Below are positions 1 to 20,471 of a stretch of DNA of 64,000 nucleotides, piece by piece. The translations under genes were made by a program, and so were the position numbers. Origin of the DNA: Candidatus Bilamarchaeaceae archaeon (GTDB lineage: Archaea > Micrarchaeota > Micrarchaeia > Anstonellales > Bilamarchaeaceae); contig JAWCKZ010000002.1 in assembly GCA_038851325.1 (NCBI GenBank), positions 71,888 to 135,887 on the forward strand, in the 5' to 3' direction. The notes below the pieces were generated by a model that saw nothing but the letters and a program-made list of their open reading frames with translations, did not search any database and was not told the DNA's origin. How positions within the stretch are numbered: position 1 is the first letter of the stretch; each line of letters starts with the position of its first letter.

Positions 1-53
1 TTTTTCCCATATACTGTAAACAACAAGCAAATACCGAACGCTTAGTGAAGAGT

Positions 54-1400
54 ATGAAATATTTCAAAACATTTATGGTGGATGCTGCAAAGCAGAAGAG
101 TAAAGGCCCTACTGCTAACCATAAACTAAACAAATTGTATGTTCAGCACGAAGGGTTGCTTACCACTCAAAACAACGTACAACCATCGCCAAGGGGGCGT
201 AATGTAACCGTACATGGTCCACTAAAAATTGCTTTGGAGGAGTTTGCGCCAGACGCCGAAAGCTACGACTCTCTACGATGTATAACCAGGTTCGCAAGCG
301 AGGACTTTAGTAGTCTTTCGGAGTACCTATTTACAGTGCTCAAAAAAGCCTTTGAAGGCGTGGTGAGATGCTCCATCTATCTTGCCGAAGAGGTAGGAAC
401 CAGGAGCAGTTTCAAAACAATCCTCTCGCATTATCTGACTATTAACATGAATGGAAATGTAAGAACAAGTTCGTTGGACAAGGGAAGCAGAATATCAGAT
501 AAGAGCGATCCTATTTTGAAGGCTTATCTGGATAAAAAACCCAGGTTTATAGATTATCGCGCGGGCATGGACCTGATTTTCAAGAATCTTAATTATGAAA
601 ACAAAGACTGTGATGTGTACGTAAGAGAACCTAACATCCTTAAAGATGATGTTGCGTTGATACCATTTTATTACAGGGAAAGGGATAAACTTCGCGGTGT
701 GATGGTACTGGAAGGAAACCTCAAGTGTAAAAATTCGGCAAAATGTGGTTTTGGGAAAGCATTCTATTTTATGATGGCAGCTACAGCACTCGGCGCCCAA
801 GTTGGTTTTATATCAATGCAAAAATACGATCACACAACCGCGCTGTATAAAAAAAGCGATTTTGAGATAGACCTAAAAACATTAATTCGCAGATTGTTAA
901 AAGCACAAAAGCGTGGTGCGCAAAAGAACGCTATTATCCTTCTCGTAGACCTTGATAATTTTAAGGCGGTCAATGAGCATTATGGATATTTAGCTGGGGA
1001 CGCTCTTCTTAGTAATATAGCAAAAGCGATAAAGAACTCCGTGCGCAGGCCCACACAAAACAGAAAATCAGACATTATAGCCAGATGGGGCGGGGAGGAG
1101 TTCGCTATTCTTCTTGAGGATATAGATGAAGAAAATGCAATCAAAATAGCCAACCGAATCAGGGACGAGGTGGCCAAGGCAAAGATAAAAGTTGACGAAA
1201 AAGAGATAAGAGTAACATGCAGCATAGGCCTTCTTAATATCGAGAAAGCTTTGGCGACAGATAAGAGAACAGGTGTGGATGAAGCAGCAAAAAATGTTTT
1301 TAATAAATGCAACACCCTTCTCAAATCTGTTAAAAGCAACGGAAAGAATGGAATAGCGTTTGTTTCAGAGGGCAATGGTGTGGAGCTGATACGCGGATAG
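54..1400 (+). CDS. GAF-GGDEF diguanylate cyclase
   Basis: LLVDLDNFKAVNEHYGYLAGD motif; RKSD-IIARW-GGEEF (RxxD I-site plus active site, GGEEF at nt 1089-1103); VTCSIG and KSNGKN; upstream GAF-like segment (ALIPF...LRGVMVL). Start ATG 54 or GTG 45. Confidence 0.9.
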   Translation: MKYFKTFMVDAAKQKSKGPTANHKLNKLYVQHEGLLTTQNNVQPSPRGRNVTVHGPLKIALEEFAPDAESYDSLRCITRFASEDFSSLSEYLFTVLKKAFEGVVRCSIYLAEEVGTRSSFKTILSHYLTINMNGNVRTSSLDKGSRISDKSDPILKAYLDKKPRFIDYRAGMDLIFKNLNYENKDCDVYVREPNILKDDVALIPFYYRERDKLRGVMVLEGNLKCKNSAKCGFGKAFYFMMAATALGAQVGFISMQKYDHTTALYKKSDFEIDLKTLIRRLLKAQKRGAQKNAIILLVDLDNFKAVNEHYGYLAGDALLSNIAKAIKNSVRRPTQNRKSDIIARWGGEEFAILLEDIDEENAIKIANRIRDEVAKAKIKVDEKEIRVTCSIGLLNIEKALATDKRTGVDEAAKNVFNKCNTLLKSVKSNGKNGIAFVSEGNGVELIRG

Positions 1401-9614: not shown

Positions 9615-10502
9615 ATGCTAGATGCACCTCCCAAAAGCGAGAGACAACTTATTTTGGAGGCAGCAGTGGAGGTCATCAAAAAACAAGGACTTAGATCGGA
9701 ATTGATAGGGAGCAAGAAATTTTCAGAATACTTTTTTAAGGGTGTTATGCTATTCAATGTTCTTGGTGACGGATGCACAAGAAACTGCAGGTTCTGCGTT
9801 ATAAAGTACAAAAAAAAGCCTGATAAGCCTTCGCTTGATGAAGGAAAAAGAATAGCCGCTGTTTCTCAAAAACTTGGATTAAGGTATATTGTTCTTTCGC
9901 CCGTAGCAAGGGACGACCTTGCAGATGGCGGTGCATCCTACCTTGCATCCTACATAAGAGATATAAAAAAGATAAATCCGAATGTGAAGGTTGAGACGTT
10001 TATTCCAGATTACGGTAAAAAACACCTTATAAAAATGGTGGTCGACGCTGGGCCAGACGTAATATCATACAGTCTAGACACGATCAAGCGGCTATATTCT
10101 GTCGTGAAGGGAAGCGAGTTTGATTTTGAGAGGAGCATAAGGACAGTCCGCACGATTAGAGAGTTGAGCAAGGACATACCCATCAGGGCAACCATAATGG
10201 TTGGGTTTAGAGAAAGTTGGTTTGAGGTAATAGGCGCATTAAGACGATTGCGTAAGGCGGGCGTGGATATGATAACGATAAGCCAATACTATAGGCCAAC
10301 AAAGAACCATATTCAGGTTCTTGAGTATGTACCGGTGGAAAGGTTCGAGTTGTATGAAAGAGAGGCATATCAACTTGGTTATAAACATGTTAAGATTCAA
10401 TCTGGCAAGCCTATTGAGTATAGCGATTATATCCTACCAGAATTTATTTCTTCTGTACAACGAAAGCCTCTAGGACCTTTTCGTAAGGAGCATCAGTTTT
10501 AA
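9615..10502 (+). CDS. Lipoyl synthase (LipA)-like radical SAM protein lacking auxiliary-cluster motifs
   Basis: LGDGCTRNCRFC (CX3CX2C), VARDDLADGGA, VETFIPDY, IMVGFRES, ITISQYYRPT; no N-terminal CX4CX5C and no C-terminal RSSY. Confidence 0.85.
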   Translation: MLDAPPKSERQLILEAAVEVIKKQGLRSELIGSKKFSEYFFKGVMLFNVLGDGCTRNCRFCVIKYKKKPDKPSLDEGKRIAAVSQKLGLRYIVLSPVARDDLADGGASYLASYIRDIKKINPNVKVETFIPDYGKKHLIKMVVDAGPDVISYSLDTIKRLYSVVKGSEFDFERSIRTVRTIRELSKDIPIRATIMVGFRESWFEVIGALRRLRKAGVDMITISQYYRPTKNHIQVLEYVPVERFELYEREAYQLGYKHVKIQSGKPIEYSDYILPEFISSVQRKPLGPFRKEHQF

Positions 10503-11532
10503 CAGCAGTTGGAGAAAAATGGGTTCTTGCGGCTTTGTAGCCAATCGAATTTAAGAAATCAAGAACATCGTTCATCTTCGGCACGCTTCCTCGCGAAATA
10601 AACTTTGAGATTCTATGAAGATCATAAAAATATGGTGGCATCCCAATCTCTTGTTCCATAAGCTCTAATTTATTATGTATCTCTTCTCTGTGACCGTACC
10701 CTCTCTTTTCATTTAATTTTTTCATTTCTCTGAGAATATTTATATCGTGGAGCTCTCCGAGCCAAAGCGGTCCTGCGTACTCAATATTTTTATTGCAGAC
10801 CTTGCACCACTCCGTTGGAAAGCGCACTGCTCTCCTGAAGCCACAATGTGGGCAGTACTCGACATAACCAAGACGTGCAAGCGCGTTGTTTGCTTTCTCT
10901 GCCCCCCTTGTTACCTTTACTACAGTTTTTAAATAATGTCTATCAGAGATCGAAAGAAGAGGTATCGTTCCCATGTTAAATTCGGCACCTACTTCGGCTA
11001 TCTTTTTTATCAAAATCCTGAGACCGTTTTCGTGCGTGCATTCATTGTTCAGCGGCTTTGCATGATAGTTTTTCATACACGGCTTTGTTTTTCCGCCGCA
11101 CAGAACAGCAGTGTCTGTTGCTGTGACTGAAAGATATCCCTGCTTAAGGGGATTAAAGATTCTGAAAACATCATAGAGATACGGAGATGGTGTCCCAAAC
11201 GGGTCAACCTCGACAAAATCAGCGGTTATGTCGAAAACAAGTCTTGAGATGTTCCCATGGAGTACAGAGAATTTTATTTTGTTTTTCCTTGCATTTTTTC
11301 TTGCACATGCCACGGCCGCTTTATTCACATCAACAAATATAGTGCGCCTTACATTATCATTTTCGATGGCATATCGTATGCCCCGTATGCCAGTTGCTGC
11401 AAATCCGTCGCACACAATGATTTTTTCCGCCAATGCACCGATCAAAAGCGAAACAATGCTGCGACAGAACGTCATTTCTTTATTGTAAAAAACCCCCTTC
11501 GGTGCGTTAAACACCACTCCCTCCTCCATCAT
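10444..11532 (-). CDS. trm1: tRNA (guanine26-N2)-dimethyltransferase
   Basis: VFYN..M...R, ATGIRGIRY, DPFGTP, VTATD, GLRIL, GPLWLG, RTHF. Confidence 0.95.
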   Translation of the reverse strand: MMEEGVVFNAPKGVFYNKEMTFCRSIVSLLIGALAEKIIVCDGFAATGIRGIRYAIENDNVRRTIFVDVNKAAVACARKNARKNKIKFSVLHGNISRLVFDITADFVEVDPFGTPSPYLYDVFRIFNPLKQGYLSVTATDTAVLCGGKTKPCMKNYHAKPLNNECTHENGLRILIKKIAEVGAEFNMGTIPLLSISDRHYLKTVVKVTRGAEKANNALARLGYVEYCPHCGFRRAVRFPTEWCKVCNKNIEYAGPLWLGELHDINILREMKKLNEKRGYGHREEIHNKLELMEQEIGMPPYFYDLHRISKFISRGSVPKMNDVLDFLNSIGYKAARTHFSPTAVKTDAPYEKVLEAFVVQKK

Positions 11533-12754
11533 TTTTATCCCTATCCAAAAATTCTCTAAGAGCCGCGGTTGCATAGGCCCCTGATTGGAGCGAGAATGTG
11601 AATGTGTTGTTATAAAATGAGAAGTCTTTTAATGGTGAGAGCAGCGTACGGTGTGTTCCTTTTGAGGATATCTCTGGTATGGCCTTTATTTTGAAATCAC
11701 GCGGTTTTATATCAAACATCTCAAGAATTCTTTTTTCACGCTCGTTCACCTTTGTTTCATACCCTATCATCTTTCCTGCAATCCATCTTGAATGACTTTC
11801 CTGCTTCTTTATGTCAGGAAAGCCACCCGTCTCTCCGCAATAGTATTCTCCTTCTTCGAGTTTGTTGAGCGCTCCTTCAGCAATTCTTTCTGATAGGGCA
11901 AGGTTGAAGATGTGCGACTGGAATGCGTGAACGAACAAAAGAAGGATGCGTCTCGGTAGTTTTCTAAGAGCACCAGCATAGTCCCTTGGATAGACAGCAA
12001 GATGTGTAAGAAGCGCTCTCTCAAGGTGCAAATACTTTGGAAACTCCTTAAGTGCTTTCTTAAAGTCCCCTGTTTCTCGTAGATTTTTTCTTGCTAATAT
12101 TGCTAGTTCGTTTGTTTCCCCTTTGCATTCACAGAGAAATTCAAGTGCCGCCAAATCGTGCCTCCCCTTTGCAAGGTACTCTCCGAGTTTGTGAGTATTT
12201 CGCCTGCTTGAACCAAACCTTTGAGGCCCAAAATAGTTAGGGAAGACGCCATTCAATTCTTTATAAATCACTTCCACAGCGTTTTTTTCGTTAGGATTCT
12301 GTCCATGTACAACTATCTTGAAACGGTTTCCCAGAAGACTGCCCAATCTCGTTTTATCAGATGAGCTCCACGCGCCGAGTATCTTTATATCCTTGAGATT
12401 AAGCGAGAGCAATTTCTCCTTGCTAATTCCGAAAACAGAAACAAGTTGAGTAGAAATAGCATTCTTATCCTTCGTACCTGCATAACTGAATCGCTTTGCA
12501 CTGATGCGAAGTTCATCCGCTATTCTCCTTATTGCCCCCTCGCTTGTCCATTCCCTCTTTTGAAGTATGAAATGCGTGAAATTTCCTTCTGTCCCAGCGC
12601 GTGTGAAGGTCTTGTCCTTCTCCAGTATTGTTCCGTCTTCAAGTATTTCCTCAACTATGAAATCATCCGGTGTTTTCTTTATTCTTCCACCAATTCCAGG
12701 GGTCTTTGAAAGGTAAGAAAGAAAATGGTCTTTCTCTGGCAAATCCTCACTCAT
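11507..12754 (-). CDS. truD: tRNA pseudouridine(13) synthase
   Basis: DFIVEEI, AGTKDKNAISTQ, GNRFKI, PNYFGPQRFG, AFQSHIFN, GAYAT. Confidence 0.96.
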   Translation of the reverse strand: MSEDLPEKDHFLSYLSKTPGIGGRIKKTPDDFIVEEILEDGTILEKDKTFTRAGTEGNFTHFILQKREWTSEGAIRRIADELRISAKRFSYAGTKDKNAISTQLVSVFGISKEKLLSLNLKDIKILGAWSSSDKTRLGSLLGNRFKIVVHGQNPNEKNAVEVIYKELNGVFPNYFGPQRFGSSRRNTHKLGEYLAKGRHDLAALEFLCECKGETNELAILARKNLRETGDFKKALKEFPKYLHLERALLTHLAVYPRDYAGALRKLPRRILLLFVHAFQSHIFNLALSERIAEGALNKLEEGEYYCGETGGFPDIKKQESHSRWIAGKMIGYETKVNEREKRILEMFDIKPRDFKIKAIPEISSKGTHRTLLSPLKDFSFYNNTFTFSLQSGAYATAALREFLDRDKNDGGGSGV

Positions 12755-12872: not shown

Positions 12873-14273
12873 CTATGACCCCATTTTTTCTGTCTTTGTT
12901 TTTCTGTCTTTGTTGCGGACCATGTGGATGATCGATTTATAAGACTGGAAGAGTGAATTAACAAGGGTTTGATTTCCGCCCAGATAGTAATGATGCGCCG
13001 CACCCCCCTCCTCAGCTATCTGATGCCACTCCTTTGTTTTCAGCTGCACTTCAAATCGCAGCAATCTCGAGGTGAGAACATCCTCGGGTTCGGTGTCGTA
13101 ATGGAACGCCTTATAACCATTTTCAGGTTTGACTTTGAACTCTGGAGTGCATTTTTTGTAAAGCACGCCAGGGGTTGTATTTAGTCCGCATAAATTTGAT
13201 TCTATTACTGCCTTTGCCAATTCCAGAGCTCTCCCCTTTGCGTCTTCTTCCATCTTGTCTACCTCAATCCCATGTAGTTTGTTGATGATAACGCGGAGCG
13301 CTACAAGGTCATTAAGTTTTGCAATGTCGTAGTATTGAATAATCGATCTTATATATTTGTTTAGTTTTTCTTCATTTTCCTCAGAACTCTCGTTATGACC
13401 AACATGTAGACGCTTAAACTCATCCACCAATCTTCTATATATCTTGCGCATTATTTTCCCTTCATGTTTTTTCATTCTTGGTGCAACAATCGCATCTGTG
13501 AAGCCTTGGACTCTTAACGTTTGCCTGATCCGTCTTGCAAGATCTTTGACAATGTTTTGCGTTGTATGCAGGCGTTCCGTAAGCCCGGTTTCATTCATTT
13601 TTTCCATTACATATTCGTATATCTCTCTGTGGTTTATCTTAAATGCGTGGAGAAGAATATCTCCTGCTAGGGATGGATATCCAAAAAATTCTGCCAGCGG
13701 GGCGTAGATTTTCTCCCCTGCTGTTGCGTCCCTTTTTAGAGAGTTTTCTGCATCCGATTGAGAATCGTAAAGCCTGAATATAGAACAACCATTGTTGTTA
13801 ATGACATCATTTGTTCTTTGGCTTGTTGTGTGCGTGACAGCGACATCAACTATTCGCGGCAGCAAAGCCAATGGAGCTGGTTTGTTATCATTAAGTAAAG
13901 GAATATAACTCTCCAGCGGAGCACCAGCGCGATCAAGATTTCTCAACTGACAGAATATTCTGAGTTCGTCGACTATTGCTCTTTCTTCTAGCATTTGAAG
14001 GATGGAAGGGTCCAAGCATTTAACCTTATCATAATCTATCATGTGATAAAGTACAATCTCTGTAATCCGGTGATTCAGTTCAGCCCTTTCTGGATCTTTT
14101 TTGTAGTGTTTTATTGCACTTCCATTCACCATCTTTACTTCTTCAGCCTTTTTCATGACTTCAAGGCAGTGTTGGTAGAGCTGCATAGCATTTTTTTTGA
14201 AATAAAAATTCCTAGCTGTTAGTATACTGGATTGAAGGGATGGTAATTTTTTTCTAGTTCGTATAAATTCCAT
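12873..14273 (-). CDS. RelA/SpoT homologue: degenerate HD domain plus (p)ppGpp-synthetase domain, no TGS/ACT
   Basis: IYAPLAEFFG, PRMKKHEGKIMRK, NDLVALRVII, KPENGYKAFH, FEVQLKTKEWHQIAEEGGAAHHYY. Confidence 0.88.
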   Translation of the reverse strand: MEFIRTRKKLPSLQSSILTARNFYFKKNAMQLYQHCLEVMKKAEEVKMVNGSAIKHYKKDPERAELNHRITEIVLYHMIDYDKVKCLDPSILQMLEERAIVDELRIFCQLRNLDRAGAPLESYIPLLNDNKPAPLALLPRIVDVAVTHTTSQRTNDVINNNGCSIFRLYDSQSDAENSLKRDATAGEKIYAPLAEFFGYPSLAGDILLHAFKINHREIYEYVMEKMNETGLTERLHTTQNIVKDLARRIRQTLRVQGFTDAIVAPRMKKHEGKIMRKIYRRLVDEFKRLHVGHNESSEENEEKLNKYIRSIIQYYDIAKLNDLVALRVIINKLHGIEVDKMEEDAKGRALELAKAVIESNLCGLNTTPGVLYKKCTPEFKVKPENGYKAFHYDTEPEDVLTSRLLRFEVQLKTKEWHQIAEEGGAAHHYYLGGNQTLVNSLFQSYKSIIHMVRNKDRKTKTEKMGS

Positions 14274-14330
14274 AATGATACATCGTTTAAAACATTTTAA
14301 AAAGATATCGGAATGTGCTGCGAAAGAGTA

Positions 14331-15311
14331 TTAATAGATAATACAACGCGCAGCCTTTAATTGCTCTATATTCCTACTTCCTGTGAGAAAGGCAGCTATG
14401 GCAAGTTGTTTTTTCCATTTCTCAATTTCTTCTTCAAGACATTTTTTTGTGAGGGCGATAAGAAACGGTTGTGCAGCGCCCCCCATCTCCGCACCAAGCG
14501 CTATTGCCTTTGCAACGTCTACTCCGCTTCTTACTCCGCCGCTGGCAATAAGCGGTAGAATTCCTTTACACATAAGAATGGAGTCTACAGTTTTTATCCC
14601 CCAATTTTCAAATCCCGGCACTCCTCCTTTTCGCATGTACTCTATTTTACTCCACGAAGTTCCTCCAGCGCCAGAAACATCCAACCATGAAACGCCGACA
14701 CCCTTAAGCTTCTCTGCTACCTCTGTGCTCATTCCGGCTCCTGTTTCCTTTGCAATAACAGGCACGCCAATTCTTTCTACTGTCTTTTCTATTGCTGCCA
14801 GGATACCTGAAAAATCGGTATCCCCTTCTGGTTGGATGACTTCTTGCAGAGGATTTAGGTGAATAGCGAGAGCGTCTGCCTCAACGGATGCTACGAGTGA
14901 TTCTATCTTCTCTATTGGGTATTTATTCAATTGGGCTGCCCCTATATTTGCGAGTAGAGGTATATCAGGCGCGACATCTCGCACTTTAAATGTATCCGCA
15001 GTGGCTGGATTCTCTATCATAGCGCGCTGCGAACCAAGTCCAAAGGCTATGCCTGCATTCTGCGCAGCAGCAGCAAGCATCCTGTTTATTTTTTTTGCCT
15101 TTGGATAGCCGCCGGTCAACGCGCATATCAAAAGAGGCGCGGATATTTTTTTACCTAAAAAATCTGTTGAAAGATCAACATCAGACAATGCGCATTCCGG
15201 CAAGGAATTGTGGATTAGCAGAATGCGCTCAAAACCTGCGGAAAAGGAATACTGGCTCTCTTTTTTTATGGAAAGAGCGATATGGTCTTGTTTTCTCTTA
15301 TAGATGCTCAC
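14331..15311 (-). CDS. fni: Type 2 isopentenyl-diphosphate delta-isomerase
   Basis: RKQDHI, LTGG, GLGSQR, IHLNPLQE, KETGAG, GAGGTSW, ASGGVRSG; probable GTG start 15311 after GGTGA. Confidence 0.95.
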   Translation of the reverse strand: MSIYKRKQDHIALSIKKESQYSFSAGFERILLIHNSLPECALSDVDLSTDFLGKKISAPLLICALTGGYPKAKKINRMLAAAAQNAGIAFGLGSQRAMIENPATADTFKVRDVAPDIPLLANIGAAQLNKYPIEKIESLVASVEADALAIHLNPLQEVIQPEGDTDFSGILAAIEKTVERIGVPVIAKETGAGMSTEVAEKLKGVGVSWLDVSGAGGTSWSKIEYMRKGGVPGFENWGIKTVDSILMCKGILPLIASGGVRSGVDVAKAIALGAEMGGAAQPFLIALTKKCLEEEIEKWKKQLAIAAFLTGSRNIEQLKAARCIIY

Positions 15312-15350
15312 AAATTCACCCGTTCGTGTCAACAATTTTACTCTATGATC

Positions 15351-16088
15351 TCACCTTGCCAACGGATACTTTTCCATGTACATCTGAGTCTGGAGAATAA
15401 TGAGAAATGGAAGAAGAACGATCGAGTTGACCAGCAAAGCAAAGTACTGCGAAAATACCCCCGAGAATAGAAAATCGCCCGATATCTTTGAAAGCACCAA
15501 AGTTAACGCGCCAATGGCCAGCCAGGAGATACAAAGGAGCGGTTTTCGTAGTGCAAGATCACCTGAGCGAATGATCGCGGTTCCTACATCTGAATCGTCT
15601 ATAACAATGGCCGGGGGAACGAATAACAGGAGATAAGAAAGGACAAAGGAAAATAGAGGGTAGATGACTGTTTGGCCATAGATATCGTGAAGAAGCAATT
15701 GTGCTATGAGGTGAAGTATAAATACAATAGTAAGAACGCAGAATATCCTTGTTGCATGCTTCGGGACTGCCGAAATCATCTCCTGCGTTGTTTCGGTTAG
15801 AGTACGTTTTGAGCGTACTATTATATTGATGTTCACAATCGTATCAGCTATTATAAACATTGCTATTAGATACGCAATGACGATTATGGATATGTCAAGA
15901 ATGGAGAAATCCGGAAGGCTTCCTGTTCTTGCAAATAGTGCCCCTGCTGCTAGATAGGTGGGTAGAGGAACAAGCACGGGAACGAGAGACGCAGCAAAGA
16001 ATGGAATAGAAAAGAGAGCCAGAAGTGCTATCTTCTTAAAGTAAAATTCCAGAGAATACGCAACAACCCTGTTCAATTCTTCCATCAT
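15351..16088 (-). CDS. Multi-pass membrane hypothetical protein
   Basis: About six hydrophobic helices; co-oriented with neighbours. Confidence 0.75.
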   Translation of the reverse strand: MMEELNRVVAYSLEFYFKKIALLALFSIPFFAASLVPVLVPLPTYLAAGALFARTGSLPDFSILDISIIVIAYLIAMFIIADTIVNINIIVRSKRTLTETTQEMISAVPKHATRIFCVLTIVFILHLIAQLLLHDIYGQTVIYPLFSFVLSYLLLFVPPAIVIDDSDVGTAIIRSGDLALRKPLLCISWLAIGALTLVLSKISGDFLFSGVFSQYFALLVNSIVLLPFLIILQTQMYMEKYPLAR

Positions 16089-16094
16089 TGTTAT

Positions 16095-16673
16095 TCACCT
16101 TTCTTTTTCGATCTTTGTTACAGTAACCTTGTTGTCCTTTAAAATTTCAACTACGTAATAATAACTTGCATTCGGCGAATCCCACACGACTCGCCATCCT
16201 ACCTTCGTTTCGCTTACTGAGTGCAATGTATTTGGATTATTTGAGATGTACCCGCTTACTAGCTCTGTCCCTGGAAATGTATGTGAGGCTATCACCGCTT
16301 CCTCAGGAAATATAAGAACACAGCCTGGCTCGTAGCAGACCGTACAATTTGAGGTTATGATTTCCTGAGGTTGAGGGACAAAGTTCTGAACTGGGTAGTT
16401 ATAGAATATATGCACCCTTTCTGGGCATGGGGTATGCGGTGACTTAGTCACTTTTGCCTTTATCTCAAAATACCTATTCCCCAACTCGTTCGTGAGTTCC
16501 TTGGTTGATATTATCTCTATATCTGCGTTTGGGTATCTAGAACGCAGATCCTCCAAGACAAACTTTGTTGCATCTCCTTCGACGATATTTATCTTGAAGA
16601 GTTCCGCTCCCTTTACAAGCGTAAATATAACAATAAGAAGTACGAATAGCAGCACCAACCCTTTTTTAAGCAT
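16095..16673 (-). CDS. Membrane-anchored hypothetical protein
   Basis: N-terminal TM, CPER and CTVC...C cysteines. Confidence 0.75.
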   Translation of the reverse strand: MLKKGLVLLFVLLIVIFTLVKGAELFKINIVEGDATKFVLEDLRSRYPNADIEIISTKELTNELGNRYFEIKAKVTKSPHTPCPERVHIFYNYPVQNFVPQPQEIITSNCTVCYEPGCVLIFPEEAVIASHTFPGTELVSGYISNNPNTLHSVSETKVGWRVVWDSPNASYYYVVEILKDNKVTVTKIEKER

Positions 16674-18881: not shown

Positions 18882-20471
18882 ATGAATGACCAAAAAAAGA
18901 TTGGAGAGAAATTCGTAGTCTTACAGGGCGGTGGTAAGAACAGGAAAAATTTATTCGATGGAGAGCTACCTGTTGTGGAAACAAGGCCGGATAACGAAGT
19001 CAACAAAATGCTCATAAGTGCTGTGCAGAATTTGGATGCAGATATGGTGGAGAGGGCACTGAAGGCAGGCGCGTATCCAGGGCTTATAGATTCAGATGGA
19101 AATACGTTACTTCATTTTTCTGGATATGAAGGTAATTATAAAATTTCAAAACTGCTTATCGATTACGCTTTGGCTAGAAAGATTGATATCATTAACGTAC
19201 ATAATAAACAGAACAAGACGCCGATGGACATGGTGCTGGATGGTCGAAGACCTGATTCCGAAGGACATGCTAAGGTCTTCGCACTTCTGAGAATAAATAA
19301 AGGAAAGTGGTTTAACCCTGAAATTCTTTCTCACATAGGAAATTTTGAAGAGACTAAACGAGTAATCGAGCGTATAGGAAGAGCTGCCATGTCGAGCGAA
19401 TTGATAATGGCTGCTGCAGCGCTTGATATTGATTACGCAAAAAAACTCCTCAGATGTGGTGCTAGTATTTTTTTTAATGATACGGCGACCACCGAGATCT
19501 ACACTTCTCCGCTTGCTGTTATCATAGGCAAAGCGCTTGAGAGCGGTCTTACCGATGAGATAGTAAATGCTGCCAAACTTTTTGTTGACTGGAACGCCAA
19601 GCTTAACGCCCCATTTATACCAGATTTAAACAACCCATATTTTAAGGTTACATTGATTGAGATGCAAGCAGCAGATGGCATTCCGCATGACATACGGGGT
19701 CTCCTGAAGGATCTTTATGATAAGCAGCTTGCGAACGAACAGCTTTTTGTTGCTGCGGATGAGAATGATAGGTATCGGGGCGAAAGTGCGATAAGAAAAG
19801 GCGCAAGCGTGGACGCGCGGGACGAATTTTTCGGTACTTCACTTCACACTGCTCTGGCCAAGGCGCATCTTGATTTTGCAGAGTTTATTGTCGAGCTCAA
19901 TACCGATTTAACAGCTGTAGATAGCATTGGCTCTACCCTAATTCATGCTGCTGCTTATTCGAAAGATCCTAGTGCGCTCACGCTTATAATAAGCGCTATG
20001 AGAAATGCAGGTATCGAGCCTGACCTTGATGCCAAGGACGATTTGGGGAATGCGCCAATACATGTCGCGGTTTTTAGAAGAGGGTATGAAATGGTAGAGG
20101 CGCTGGGAAAGGCAGGTGCTGACTTAAACGTGCGAAGCGATTCTGGTGAAACACCCCTTCACACTGCAGTCATGATGGATGATCCAGATATGGGCGGTTT
20201 GCTTTTGAATCTCGGAGCAGAGATTACAGAGGATGTTATTAAATTTGCAGAGGAGAGAGGCAGGGATGACATAGCAGATGCGCTAATGAAAATAAGAGAA
20301 AAACAGAAAGCAGCAGAGTCTCTTCATACTGCAATTAAAAATGAAGAGCATGGCGCAACGCTACCTGCAAAGAACGAAGAAAAAACTAAAGATGGGCCAG
20401 AGGAGGCAGGTAGAAAACTGCCCAACAACGTTGTGCCATTTCCTAACCTCGAGCGCAAAGGCAAATCCTGA
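18882..20471 (+). CDS. Ankyrin-repeat protein
   Basis: DSDGNTLLH, FGTSLHTA, GSTLIHAAA, GNAPIHVAV, GADLNVRSDSGETPLHTAV. Confidence 0.92.
   Translation: MNDQKKIGEKFVVLQGGGKNRKNLFDGELPVVETRPDNEVNKMLISAVQNLDADMVERALKAGAYPGLIDSDGNTLLHFSGYEGNYKISKLLIDYALARKIDIINVHNKQNKTPMDMVLDGRRPDSEGHAKVFALLRINKGKWFNPEILSHIGNFEETKRVIERIGRAAMSSELIMAAAALDIDYAKKLLRCGASIFFNDTATTEIYTSPLAVIIGKALESGLTDEIVNAAKLFVDWNAKLNAPFIPDLNNPYFKVTLIEMQAADGIPHDIRGLLKDLYDKQLANEQLFVAADENDRYRGESAIRKGASVDARDEFFGTSLHTALAKAHLDFAEFIVELNTDLTAVDSIGSTLIHAAAYSKDPSALTLIISAMRNAGIEPDLDAKDDLGNAPIHVAVFRRGYEMVEALGKAGADLNVRSDSGETPLHTAVMMDDPDMGGLLLNLGAEITEDVIKFAEERGRDDIADALMKIREKQKAAESLHTAIKNEEHGATLPAKNEEKTKDGPEEAGRKLPNNVVPFPNLERKGKS

What the first reader, a model, noticed from the sequence alone, without database searches (positions are those of the whole stretch)
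12873..14273. RelA/SpoT homologue in an archaeon: dead hydrolase, intact-looking synthetase, no ribosome-sensing C-terminus
Seen: all four synthetase motifs (R-x-K..., DLVALR, NGYKAFH, EVQLKT) and the long-RSH hallmarks IYAPLA..G and AE-x-G-x-AAH-x-x-Y. The HD motif reads LYHMID. The protein ends where TGS would start. It sits between archaeal fni and truD, which argues against contamination. Known: long RSH and the (p)ppGpp stringent response are generally absent from archaea, and unregulated synthetases are toxic (some make (p)ppApp or pyrophosphorylate tRNA). No antitoxin or hydrolase gene is adjacent. Inference: a novel archaeal alarmone synthetase or an exported toxin/effector.
Basis: partly seen in the sequence, partly recalled or inferred. 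Interest (0 to 1): 0.82.

Follow-up and report, generated by a model that had tools for sequence, protein, structure and literature searches.

The report
Sensor-less alarmone synthetase, DPANN archaeon
A tiny-genome archaeon carries a cut-down relative of the bacterial stress enzyme RelA whose alarm-nucleotide-making site looks intact, whose breaking site looks dead and whose tRNA-sensing tail is gone; it is an interesting variant, because similar archaeal genes were already noted in 2021.

Summary
ORF 12873-14273 (-) encodes a 466-aa protein that passes Pfam RelA_SpoT. Its predicted structure (pLDDT 92) superposes on the two-domain catalytic half of Rel/RelA/SpoT (Z 20-22). ATP-binding, Mg and acceptor-stacking residues are invariant or nearly so across 64 relatives. 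The Asp of the HD dyad is present in 1 of 64. The chain ends where TGS begins.

It is native: normal GC, all 7 of 7 genus genomes carry it, and contigs of four runs bridge both junctions. It belongs to a lineage-specific family found in 63 of 251 genomes of its DPANN phylum. Sister genera carry a longer form with a TGS-like beta-grasp domain. On a tree the short form is one clade nested inside the long forms, so the sensor was probably lost once.

Half of the sampled family genomes encode separate canonical small alarmone hydrolases; the window's genus has none (0 of 7).

Best reading: an active, hydrolase-dead, sensor-less RSH pyrophosphokinase, probably making (p)ppGpp. The acceptor cannot be read from sequence.

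The toxin/exported-effector idea has no support. RelA/SpoT genes in DPANN were reported in 2021, so this is a new variant, not a new kind.

The parts
12873..14273 (-). CDS of the 466-aa RSH-like protein (stop codon 12873-12875)
   Evidence: The start is confirmed by the ME.. N-termini of 8 homologues.
13734..14255 (-). Residues about 7-180: pseudo-hydrolase (HD-fold) domain. H35, H77 and D143 are conserved; the Asp of the HD dyad is replaced by M78.
   Evidence: The fold is seen only through the structure model (VIA-align model 7/8.. against chain 21/28.., Z 20-22). There is no sequence-level match.
13494..13733 (-). Residues 181-260: helical linker between the domains, with the IYAPLA motif
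   Evidence: HMMER and hhalign alignments to RelSeq, RelA and canonical Rel
12978..13493 (-). Residues 261-432: synthetase (SYNTH) domain with R266, K269, K277, D322, Y387, H391, E408, Q410, H427
   Evidence: Pfam PF04607; residue map to 1vj7; invariance in 64 sequences
13329..13427 (-). Residues 283-315: lineage-specific insertion 1 in SYNTH, fast-evolving
   Evidence: Gap in the hhalign alignment to canonical Rel; mean pairwise identity 16% in the short class
13149..13274 (-). Residues 334-375: lineage-specific insertion 2 (helix 343-364), fast-evolving
   Evidence: mean pairwise identity 19%
12876..12977 (-). Residues 433-466: terminal helix and disordered tail. The chain ends where TGS starts in long RSHs.
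   Evidence: pLDDT under 50 for 458-466; aligned range ends at RelSeq about 372; a strain variant carries an in-frame 15-nt deletion at 12884
14295..14303 (-). TTTTTAAAA, a TATA-box-like element centred about 26 nt upstream of the ATG (inferred own promoter, leaderless or short-leader mRNA)
   Evidence: Read directly from the sequence. This is inference only; there are no RNA data.
14331..15335 (-). fni, type 2 isopentenyl-diphosphate isomerase, directly upstream. The linkage is conserved in part of the family.
   Evidence: TIGR02151 390 bits. fni is next to the RSH gene in 10 of 16 family-f1 loci examined.
15351..16088 (-). 245-aa membrane protein with no family match, upstream of fni in the same conserved block
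11507..12754 (-). truD, downstream neighbour. This position is not conserved in relatives.

Best explanation
The gene encodes an active, monofunctional RSH-type pyrophosphokinase with the architecture [pseudo-HD]-[SYNTH] and nothing after it. It most likely transfers the beta,gamma-pyrophosphate of ATP to the 3'-OH of GDP/GTP to make (p)ppGpp, as the catalytic half of RelA does. It cannot hydrolyse the product through the canonical Mn-dependent HD mechanism, and it cannot sense uncharged tRNA or the ribosome, because the TGS-like domain kept by sister genera has been lost. Control is therefore inferred to be transcriptional (own TATA-like element) and/or through the retained pseudo-HD domain and the two lineage-specific insertions. 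Removal of the product is inferred to fall to non-RSH enzymes (two Nudix hydrolases) or to dilution. Shown here: homology, fold, conservation of catalytic residues, loss of the sensor, native and vertical inheritance, and absence of an RSH hydrolase in the genus. Inferred: activity, identity of the acceptor, regulation and turnover.
For: Homology and fold:
- Pfam RelA_SpoT passes its cut-off.
- hhalign to canonical Rel gives probability 98.4%.
- The AF2 model aligns to Rel/RelA/SpoT catalytic halves at Z 17.6-21.8, against Z 9-11 for single-domain SAS.

Active site:
- By the HMMER alignments to 1vj7, R266/K269/K277 = R241/K243/K251, Y387 = Y308, H391 = H312, E408 = E323 and Q410 = Q325.
- D322 aligns to the Asp of the canonical DLxAxR motif.
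- R266, K269, K277, D322, E408 and H427 are invariant in 64 of 64 relatives that share only 20-49% identity. Y387 is present in 63 of 64.
- The SYNTH core is the best conserved part (41-46% mean identity, against 16-19% in the insertions).
- In a strain variant, D322 and N321 carry only synonymous changes.

Native gene:
- GC is 0.416, inside the window's range.
- 7 of 7 genus genomes carry an intact copy.
- Contigs of 4 runs bridge truD-RSH and RSH-fni.

An alarmone make-and-break context exists in the family:
- 31 of 60 other family genomes have HD_4 genes.
- The two of these read in full are 181- and 190-aa proteins with intact HP, LHD..ED and (A/G)D(R/K)L.N motifs.

Sensor loss:
- The long class has a beta-grasp domain at the TGS position.
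- The short class is one clade of 42 rows (SH-aLRT 98) nested among long forms.
Against: - No activity or expression data exist.
- TIGR00691 (spoT_relA) scores 22.9 bits against a cut-off of 499, so this is not an ordinary Rel/RelA/SpoT.
- The acceptor cannot be read from sequence. The toxSAS literature states that tRNA-modifying RSHs have no clear sequence signature and share the stacking Tyr (bioRxiv 10.1101/2021.04.30.441581, passages).
- An unregulated synthetase without a hydrolase is expected to be harmful, yet no HD_4 or Ppx-GppA gene was found in the genome (90.9% complete) or in the 6 other genus genomes.
- The protein evolves fast: 31-46% identity within the genus, against 62-71% for TruD and fni. 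The strain variant shows 8 nonsynonymous against 6 synonymous changes, where the neighbours show 1 against 21 (Fisher p = 7e-4). This could mean relaxed constraint or a conflict role.
- S247 of RelSeq is replaced by K273.
Confidence: 0.55

Rival explanations
1. It is an active RSH pyrophosphokinase with another acceptor. [quoted passage not shown]
For: The stacking Tyr and the catalytic residues are shared by all RSH chemistries, and tRNA-targeting enzymes have no sequence signature. pI is 9.0. The divergence from canonical Rel is very large (13-19% identity in structural alignments). No RSH hydrolase occurs in the genus. The non-catalytic parts evolve fast. Elsewhere in the phylum the homologue sits next to AlaRS (4 loci) or ThrRS (1 locus).
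Against: The two-domain long-RSH architecture and the TGS-bearing ancestors point to the housekeeping lineage, whose characterised members use GDP/GTP. CapRel and Tas1 align much less well (Z 7.5-9.2) than Rel/RelA (Z 20-22). There is no antitoxin or immunity gene and no PADLOC match.
Confidence: 0.2
2. It is a pseudoenzyme or a decaying gene: a scaffold or regulator that no longer catalyses pyrophosphate transfer.
For: It evolves fast relative to its neighbours and shows an excess of nonsynonymous strain differences. It has two large insertions in SYNTH. K273 replaces the phosphate-contacting Ser.
Against: Six catalytic and binding residues are invariant in 64 of 64 sequences at 20-49% identity. 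The ORF is intact in 7 of 7 genus genomes. The nonsynonymous differences lie in codons 10, 84, 283, 336, 439, 442 and 464, all outside the catalytic motifs. K273 is itself conserved (37 of 38 in the short class).
Confidence: 0.1
3. It is bifunctional after all: the N-terminal domain still hydrolyses the product using the conserved His35-His77-Asp143 triad. That would explain why the genus needs no separate hydrolase.
For: H35 is present in 35 of 35 non-gap short-class rows, and H77 and D143 in 38 of 38. Short-class-specific conserved polar residues also occur (E103, R115, N128, T147, H148, R167). The domain keeps 33% mean identity, which is not decay. HD_4 hydrolase genes are found in 0 of 7 genus genomes.
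Against: The Asp of the HD dyad is present in only 1 of 64 sequences. The ED motif seen in the relatives' own SAHs is not conserved. There is no HD_4 match at all and no sequence-level match to any PDB chain. That the triad clusters in space was not verified, because model coordinates could not be inspected.
Confidence: 0.07
4. It is a toxin of a defence or toxin-antitoxin system, or an exported effector aimed at a host cell.
For: Unregulated synthetases are toxic in bacteria (PMC3153485, passage). The protein evolves fast. DPANN archaea are mostly host-associated (PMC8407392, abstract).
Against: There is no neighbouring antitoxin or immunity gene. The gene lies in a housekeeping block (fni, truD, trm1, ribosomal proteins). 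It is syntenic and vertically inherited, has normal GC and no PADLOC match. The N-terminus is hydrophilic and folded, with no hydrophobic signal segment (no signal-peptide predictor was run).
Confidence: 0.05

Closest known systems
E. coli RelA, and specifically its constitutively active N-terminal fragment (RelA[hS]; PDB 5iqr, 5kpv)
   Same: Pseudo-hydrolase domain plus active-looking synthetase domain. Structural alignment gives Z 20.4, 312 residues, model 7..428 against chain 26..353. The length is almost that of the catalytic half alone. (That the RelA fragment is constitutively active is recalled, not from a call.)
   Different: Natural RelA carries TGS, helical, zinc-finger and RRM/ACT domains for ribosome and tRNA sensing; this protein has none. 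Sequence identity is about 15%. Orthology with proteobacterial RelA was not tested and is unlikely, since the pseudo-HD state probably arose independently. There are two lineage-specific insertions in SYNTH.
Bifunctional Rel catalytic halves (S. equisimilis RelSeq 1vj7/24io, S. aureus Rel 7oiw, B. subtilis Rel 6yxa)
   Same: Best structural matches (Z 20-21.8). Same linker motif and same synthetase residues.
   Different: Rel has an intact HD dyad and hydrolyses (p)ppGpp; here the Asp is M78, and the N-terminal domain has no sequence-level similarity. No C-terminal domain region.
Long-class homologues in sister genera of the same archaeal family (e.g. P0067, 584 aa, NCBI 'hypothetical protein [Candidatus Micrarchaeota archaeon]')
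   Same: Same family, and in some loci the same fni-linked position (L011, L012, L031). Same pseudo-HD and SYNTH features.
   Different: They keep about 100-120 extra C-terminal residues. In the one long form modelled (P0067) these fold as a beta-grasp at the TGS position plus helices: model 15..568 aligns to B. subtilis Rel 17..483, and ubiquitin-like hits give Z about 9. The window protein lacks this.
RelA/SpoT genes reported in DPANN archaea (Li et al. 2021, mSystems, PMC8407392)
   Same: Same general observation. RelA/SpoT was annotated in 69% of Diapherotrites, 41.7% of Woesearchaeota, 21.3% of Pacearchaeota and 19% of Nanoarchaeota, and was proposed to be of bacterial origin (passage read).
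   Different: That paper gives one sentence and a supplementary figure I could not see. It offers no domain analysis, no short/long distinction, no hydrolase census, and Micrarchaeota are not in its list.
Small alarmone synthetases and toxSAS (RelQ 5ded, RelP 6ewz, CapRel 7ztb, Tas1 6ox6)
   Same: Share the SYNTH fold (Z 7.5-10.8 over model residues about 210-443) and lack ribosome-sensing domains.
   Different: These are single-domain (or SYNTH plus antitoxin-like domain) proteins without the HD-fold domain and linker. toxSAS come with antitoxin or immunity genes; none is present here.

Membership tests
RSH superfamily (RelA/SpoT homologues), synthetase domain | Match to the SYNTH domain model (Pfam PF04607) above its curated cut-off | tested here: met
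   33.7 bits against cut-off 27, residues 316-431; 35.1 bits in the genome scan
RSH superfamily (RelA/SpoT homologues), synthetase domain | Catalytic and substrate residues: Arg/Lys for the ATP phosphates, Mg-binding Asp and Glu, stacking Tyr | tested here: met
   R266, K269, K277, D322 and E408 are invariant in 64 of 64; Y387 is present in 63 of 64. They were mapped to RelSeq R241, K243, K251, E323 and Y308 and to the canonical DLxAxR Asp.
Long RSH (Rel/RelA/SpoT) | HD-fold domain, helical linker and SYNTH in one chain | tested here: met
   The predicted structure aligns to 15 long-RSH entries at Z 14-21.8, from model residue 6-8 to 418-466. This rests on a model, not on an experimental structure.
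Long RSH (Rel/RelA/SpoT) | C-terminal regulatory region (TGS, helical, ZFD, ACT/RRM) | tested here: not met
   The protein ends 39 residues after H427. There are no TGS or ACT Pfam matches. The downstream gene is truD.
Long RSH (Rel/RelA/SpoT) | Score above the cut-off of NCBIfam TIGR00691 spoT_relA | tested here: not met
   22.9 bits against cut-off 499.2
Long RSH (Rel/RelA/SpoT) | Functional hydrolase site (H..HD..D metal ligands, ED motif) | tested here: not met
   The site reads H77-M78. The Asp of the dyad is present in 1 of 64 relatives. There is no HD_4 match. H35, H77 and D143 are retained.
RelA[hS] subgroup (beta/gamma-proteobacterial stringent factor) | Orthology to RelA and ribosome-dependent activation | not tested
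   No RelA or SpoT sequences were in my tree. The sensor domains are absent, so ribosome-dependent activation of the RelA kind is not expected.
Small alarmone synthetase (SAS) | SYNTH domain alone, no HD-fold domain | tested here: not met
   About 180 residues of HD-fold domain plus the linker precede SYNTH.
toxSAS toxin-antitoxin module | Conserved bicistronic partner (antitoxin or SAH) next to the synthetase | tested here: not met
   The neighbours are fni and truD. No small partner ORF lies in the 57-nt and 118-nt gaps.
Known anti-phage defence proteins (PADLOC-DB 2.0) | Match to a defence-system model | tested here: inconclusive
   No family at E <= 0.01 for the protein, its long-class relative or two neighbours. 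The library dates from 2023.
RSH subfamilies of Atkinson 2011 / Jimmy 2020 | Best hit to a subfamily HMM | not testable with these tools
   The subfamily HMMs are not held here, and the supplementary tables of the bioRxiv version are closed. The main text of the preprint has no occurrence of DPANN, Candidatus or Woese.

The most novel reading that the evidence does not exclude
The short-class enzyme is not a (p)ppGpp synthetase but a pyrophosphokinase with a new acceptor. The near-invariant His35-His77-Asp143 pocket of its ex-hydrolase domain, together with short-class-specific conserved residues (E103, R115, N128, T147, H148, R167), would then be a new metal or ligand site that took over the regulatory input when the tRNA-sensing TGS-like domain was lost. 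This would explain how a genus with no RSH hydrolase tolerates the enzyme.
Probability: 0.12. Interest if true: 0.85.

Novelty: new variant of a known kind. Interest (0 to 1): 0.55.

Why it matters
[quoted passage not shown] Here is a catalytically conserved, vertically inherited synthetase family in about a quarter of the sampled genomes of a DPANN phylum. Relatives carry matching canonical hydrolases and a TGS-like sensor. That makes an archaeal alarmone system directly testable with ordinary expression and nucleotide assays. The window's genus is the natural minimal case: synthetase only, no sensor and no RSH hydrolase. It therefore asks how such an enzyme is kept in check in a 0.9-Mb genome. 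The specific gene is one more member of a type already seen repeatedly, which tempers the score.

Tried and rejected
- Expression: no RNA holder was listed for the gene. There are 4 DNA runs from one hot-springs study, so nothing can be said about expression.
- Sequence-level detection of the N-terminal domain found nothing. A profile of 8 N-terminal halves against PDB gave no match at E <= 10. hhalign against canonical Rel gave probability 0.2%.
- The search for related loci with the 64-sequence alignment failed because no conserved stretch was available. With A1 it returned only 2 loci.
- PADLOC gave no match.
- I looked for published determinants of guanine versus adenine/tRNA acceptor choice. 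The passages I found say there is no clear signature for tRNA users, and a review gave no residues. The acceptor was therefore left open.
- I tried to map the RXKD/EXDD motif of Rel/RelA onto E378-F-K-V. MAFFT and hhalign disagree on the register, so I make no claim.
- The weak non-family hits of the representative search (P0074-P0104) gave an odd, possibly eukaryote-like RSH alignment (A3) that was not useful as a reference. Two hits (P0071, P0075) appear spurious: P0071 is an ankyrin-repeat protein, and P0075 (2899 aa, 9 matched stretches) was not scanned.
- My simple ORF picker missed the G002 gene; translation shows it is intact.
- The taxonomic name could not be settled. Relatives' records are titled Candidatus Micrarchaeota/Micrarchaeia and Candidatus Iainarchaeum.
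- Complex prediction, the protein atlas and a third homology search were not used.
Full report
**1. The observation.** The minus-strand ORF 12873-14273 starts with ATG and encodes 466 residues.
- PRMKKHEGKIMRK (R266, K269, K277)
- NDLVALRVI (D322)
- ENGYKAFHYD (Y387, H391)
- FEVQLKT (E408, Q410)
- KIYAPLAEFFG
- AEEGGAAHHYY
- LYHMID, where an HD dyad would be

The similarity is statistically sound:
- Pfam RelA_SpoT scores 33.7 bits against a cut-off of 27.
- phmmer and a 9-sequence profile align both motif blocks to RelSeq (1vj7) and E. coli RelA.
- hhalign against a profile of 14 canonical Rel proteins gives probability 98.4%, E 9e-15, over residues 183-432.
- NCBIfam's whole-protein model spoT_relA is far from met (22.9 against 499.2 bits).

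**2. Structure.** An AlphaFold2 model built on a 64-sequence alignment has pLDDT 92.1 and pTM 0.91. The model was made from P0001, which differs from the window ORF by N439D.
- Foldseek's best PDB matches are all long-RSH catalytic halves.
- VIA-align gives Z 21.8 to S. aureus Rel (301 residues, model 8..429 against chain 28..351). It gives Z 20-21 to B. subtilis Rel, E. coli RelA and RelSeq, and Z 17.6 to SpoT.
- Single-domain SAS enzymes reach only Z 9-11, over model residues about 210-443.

The N-terminal 180 residues therefore have the HD fold. They have no sequence-level similarity to anything solved. The chain ends after a helix that aligns to RelSeq up to about residue 372, which is just before TGS.

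**3. Residues.** From the HMMER alignments to 1vj7:

| Window protein | RelSeq |
|---|---|
| R266 | R241 |
| K269 | K243 |
| K277 | K251 |
| Y387 | Y308 |
| H391 | H312 |
| E408 | E323 |
| Q410 | Q325 |

- D322 aligns to the Asp of the canonical DLxAxR strand.
- In a 64-sequence alignment at 20-49% identity, R266, K269, K277, D322, E408 and H427 are invariant. H77, G272, A325, G386, Y387, H391, G423, A425, A426 and Y430 are at least 90% conserved.
- The roles of the RelSeq residues are recalled from the literature, not taken from a call.
- In the N-terminal domain the residue after H77 is Asp in 1 of 64 sequences, so the HD dyad is gone across the family.
- H35 (35 of 35 non-gap short-class rows; 21 of 26 long), H77 (38 of 38; 25 of 26) and D143 (38 of 38; 19 D and 4 E of 26) remain.
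- Relatives' own small hydrolases show the motifs Y.(I/V)HP, LHD..ED and (A/G)D(R/K)L.N. By comparison with these, the three residues probably correspond to three of the four metal ligands. I could not check this on coordinates.

**4. Native or foreign.**
- GC of the region is 0.416, against a window range of 0.386-0.454.
- The genome is 0.90 Mb in 18 contigs, 90.9% complete and 0.02% contaminated. It has one RelA_SpoT match.
- All 6 other genomes of the genus have an intact orthologue.
- Contigs assembled from four runs of one hot-springs study bridge truD-RSH and RSH-fni at 99% identity or more. These runs may include the source sample, so they are not independent proof.
- The flanking genes are type 2 IPP isomerase, TruD and Trm1.

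**5. The family.**
- The word-indexed search found only 9 proteins.
- The exhaustive search of 1.84 billion representatives found 98 at E <= 1e-3 and 33 at E <= 1e-30.
- Of the 49 I scanned, 45 match RelA_SpoT. Only five of the 49 show HD_4 and one of these a weak TGS match (P0074, P0078, P0084, P0086, P0087), all among the weakest hits (E 6.5e-07 to 5e-05).
- Public records call members 'hypothetical protein [Candidatus Micrarchaeota archaeon]'. A syntenic relative is titled Candidatus Iainarchaeum sp..
- In a sample of 251 genomes of the phylum, 63 have a RelA_SpoT match, including 33 of 45 other genomes in the window's family.
- Three genomes of another family carry a fully canonical 650-aa Rel (HD_4, RelA_SpoT, TGS, ACT_4). 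Its nearest bacterial relatives are Clostridia at about 48% identity. This is a separate and probably recent acquisition.

**6. Short and long forms.** Members fall into two length classes: 23-59 residues after H427 (38 sequences) or 134-212 residues (26 sequences).
- I modelled a long form (P0067, 584 aa, fni-linked; pLDDT 83.8).
- Residues 458-536 form a beta-grasp (ubiquitin-like hits, Z about 9, rmsd 1.6-1.8 over about 69 residues).
- The whole model aligns to B. subtilis Rel over 15..568 against 17..483, and to RelA over 15..575 against 22..501. That reaches through TGS into the helical domain.
- I built a tree of 97 rows with IQ-TREE (quick search, LG+C20 PMSF, SH-aLRT only). The rows were 64 family proteins, 25 locus-encoded proteins and 8 canonical Rel as outgroup. 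Five exact duplicates were dropped. Fragments under about 400 aa and most of the weaker hits were left out.
- The tree places the window protein in a clade of 42 rows, all 420-513 aa, with support 98. This clade is nested inside long-form groups through nodes of 86, 88 and 95.
- Deep nodes are poorly resolved and many branches are long.
- With that caveat, the short form arose once by loss of the TGS-like module.

**7. Neighbourhood.**
- The block membrane protein - fni - RSH is conserved. fni lies next to the RSH gene in 10 of 16 family-f1 loci examined, 5 of them in the genus.
- In L015 fni is followed by two tandem RSH paralogues.
- The gaps are as small as 1-13 nt in four loci.
- Outside the family the neighbours differ: AlaRS in 4 loci, ThrRS in 1, PEP synthase-like in 3 and Cdc48-like in 2.
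- I read the fni linkage as inherited gene order, possibly with co-transcription. It is not evidence of a shared pathway.
- In the window a TTTTTAAAA element lies about 26 nt upstream of the ATG. This suggests an own promoter, but it is inference only.

**8. Turnover.**
- The genome has no HD_4 match (E <= 1) and no Ppx-GppA match.
- It has two Nudix hydrolases of no specific subfamily and one dNTP-triphosphohydrolase-like HD protein.
- Across 60 other genomes of the family, 31 have HD_4 genes, in 16 of 23 genera. The window's genus has 0 of 6, or 0 of 7 with the window's genome.
- Two of the relatives' genes were read and are classical small alarmone hydrolases.
- Among the 38 genomes present in both samples, I tallied by hand from the tables:

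| | HD_4 present | HD_4 absent |
|---|---|---|
| Synthetase present | 13 | 14 |
| Synthetase absent | 5 | 6 |

The two genes are therefore not strictly coupled.

**9. Rate of change.**
- Within the genus, identity to the window protein is 31-46% for the RSH, 65-71% for fni, 50-57% for the membrane protein and 62-65% for TruD.
- Within the short class, mean pairwise identity is 41-46% in the SYNTH core, 38% in the linker, 33% in the pseudo-HD domain, 16-19% in the two insertions and 24% in the tail.
- A strain variant (run X4) differs in the RSH gene by 6 synonymous and 8 nonsynonymous nucleotide changes (7 codons, none in a catalytic motif), plus an in-frame 15-nt deletion in the tail.
- Four neighbouring genes together show 21 synonymous changes and 1 nonsynonymous (Fisher p = 7e-4). 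The table omitted 3 further differences, and this is a single strain comparison.
- The enzyme core is under purifying selection. The periphery is relaxed or diversifying.

**10. Literature.**
- Atkinson et al. 2011 (PMC3153485, passages) found no long RSH in archaea, only scattered SAS and SAH.
- The Jimmy et al. preprint (passages) lists 13 long-RSH subfamilies and does not mention DPANN in its main text.
- Li et al. 2021 (PMC8407392, passage) report RelA/SpoT in 69% of Diapherotrites and in three other DPANN phyla, and propose bacterial origin.
- A search for 'Micrarchae' with 'ppGpp' returned only that paper. A search for 'ppGpp' with 'DPANN' returned 8 papers, and none of the 7 listed analyses these proteins, judged from titles and abstracts.
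- Braun et al. [quoted passage not shown]
- Earlier notes of this scan describe the same type of gene in other DPANN genomes and reach similar verdicts. I treat these as leads only.

**11. Verdict.** The protein is a real, native, catalytically conserved RSH pyrophosphokinase of a DPANN-specific family. In this lineage it is reduced to pseudo-HD plus SYNTH.
- It most likely makes (p)ppGpp (0.55). Another acceptor (0.20), loss of activity (0.10), residual hydrolase activity (0.07) and a toxin role (0.05) remain possible.
- It works like the catalytic half of RelA. It is not a member of Rel, RelA, SpoT, SAS or toxSAS as those groups are defined.
- It is a new variant of a known kind. The scientific interest lies in the testable prospect of alarmone signalling in Archaea, and in the puzzle of a sensor-less, hydrolase-less synthetase.

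Noticed in passing
L019:4104-6062 (-), L020:4107-6050 (-); genomes G128, G098, G195: Three genomes of another family in the same class carry a fully canonical 650-aa Rel (HD_4 146 bits, RelA_SpoT 133 bits, TGS, ACT_4). NCBI names it RelA/SpoT family protein [Candidatus Micrarchaeia archaeon]. Its nearest bacterial relatives are Clostridia at about 48% identity. This is a separate, apparently recent transfer into DPANN archaea.
   Followed up: partly
L039:1444-1989 (+), L041:1318-1890 (-): Relatives in the same family encode stand-alone small alarmone hydrolases (181 and 190 aa) with intact HP, LHD..ED and (A/G)D(R/K)L.N motifs. HD_4 genes occur in 31 of 60 sampled family genomes but in none of the window's genus.
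   Followed up: partly
L015:4296-5630 (+) and L015:5731-7125 (+): A contig titled Candidatus Iainarchaeum sp. has fni followed by two tandem RSH paralogues (444 and 464 aa, 22% identical to each other's family) and then glutamine synthetase.
   Followed up: no
L029, L032, L033, L035 (AlaRS); L030 (ThrRS); L025, L026, L038 (PEP synthase-like): In other families of the phylum the RSH homologue sits directly beside alanyl-tRNA synthetase (4 loci), threonyl-tRNA synthetase (1) or a PEP-utilising enzyme (3). The tRNA-synthetase adjacency may be meaningful for a tRNA-sensing enzyme, but it may also be lineage synteny.
   Followed up: no
G001:C14:10239-10550 and G005:C1:119214-119492: Two genomes of the window's genus have a second, shorter RelA_SpoT match (open frames of 354 and 175 aa) that the window's genome lacks.
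   Followed up: no
window 18882-20471 (+): A 529-aa protein with several ankyrin repeats (Ank_2 79.6 bits) in a 0.9-Mb archaeal genome. Ankyrin proteins are unusual in archaea and often mediate host interaction.
   Followed up: no
window 12884-12898 and 12959: A co-occurring strain (run X4) has an in-frame 15-nt deletion in the disordered C-terminal tail of the RSH gene. All four runs read D instead of the window's N at codon 439.
   Followed up: partly
window 10444-11574 (-) and 11507-12754 (-): The longest ORFs of trm1 and truD overlap by 68 nt. The true trm1 start is probably further downstream, since the TRM1 model match begins at residue 22.
   Followed up: no
window 15351-16088 (-) and 16095-16673 (-): These are a 245-aa multi-pass membrane protein and a 192-aa protein with an N-terminal hydrophobic segment. 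Neither matches Pfam or NCBIfam. The membrane protein is conserved upstream of fni across the family.
   Followed up: no
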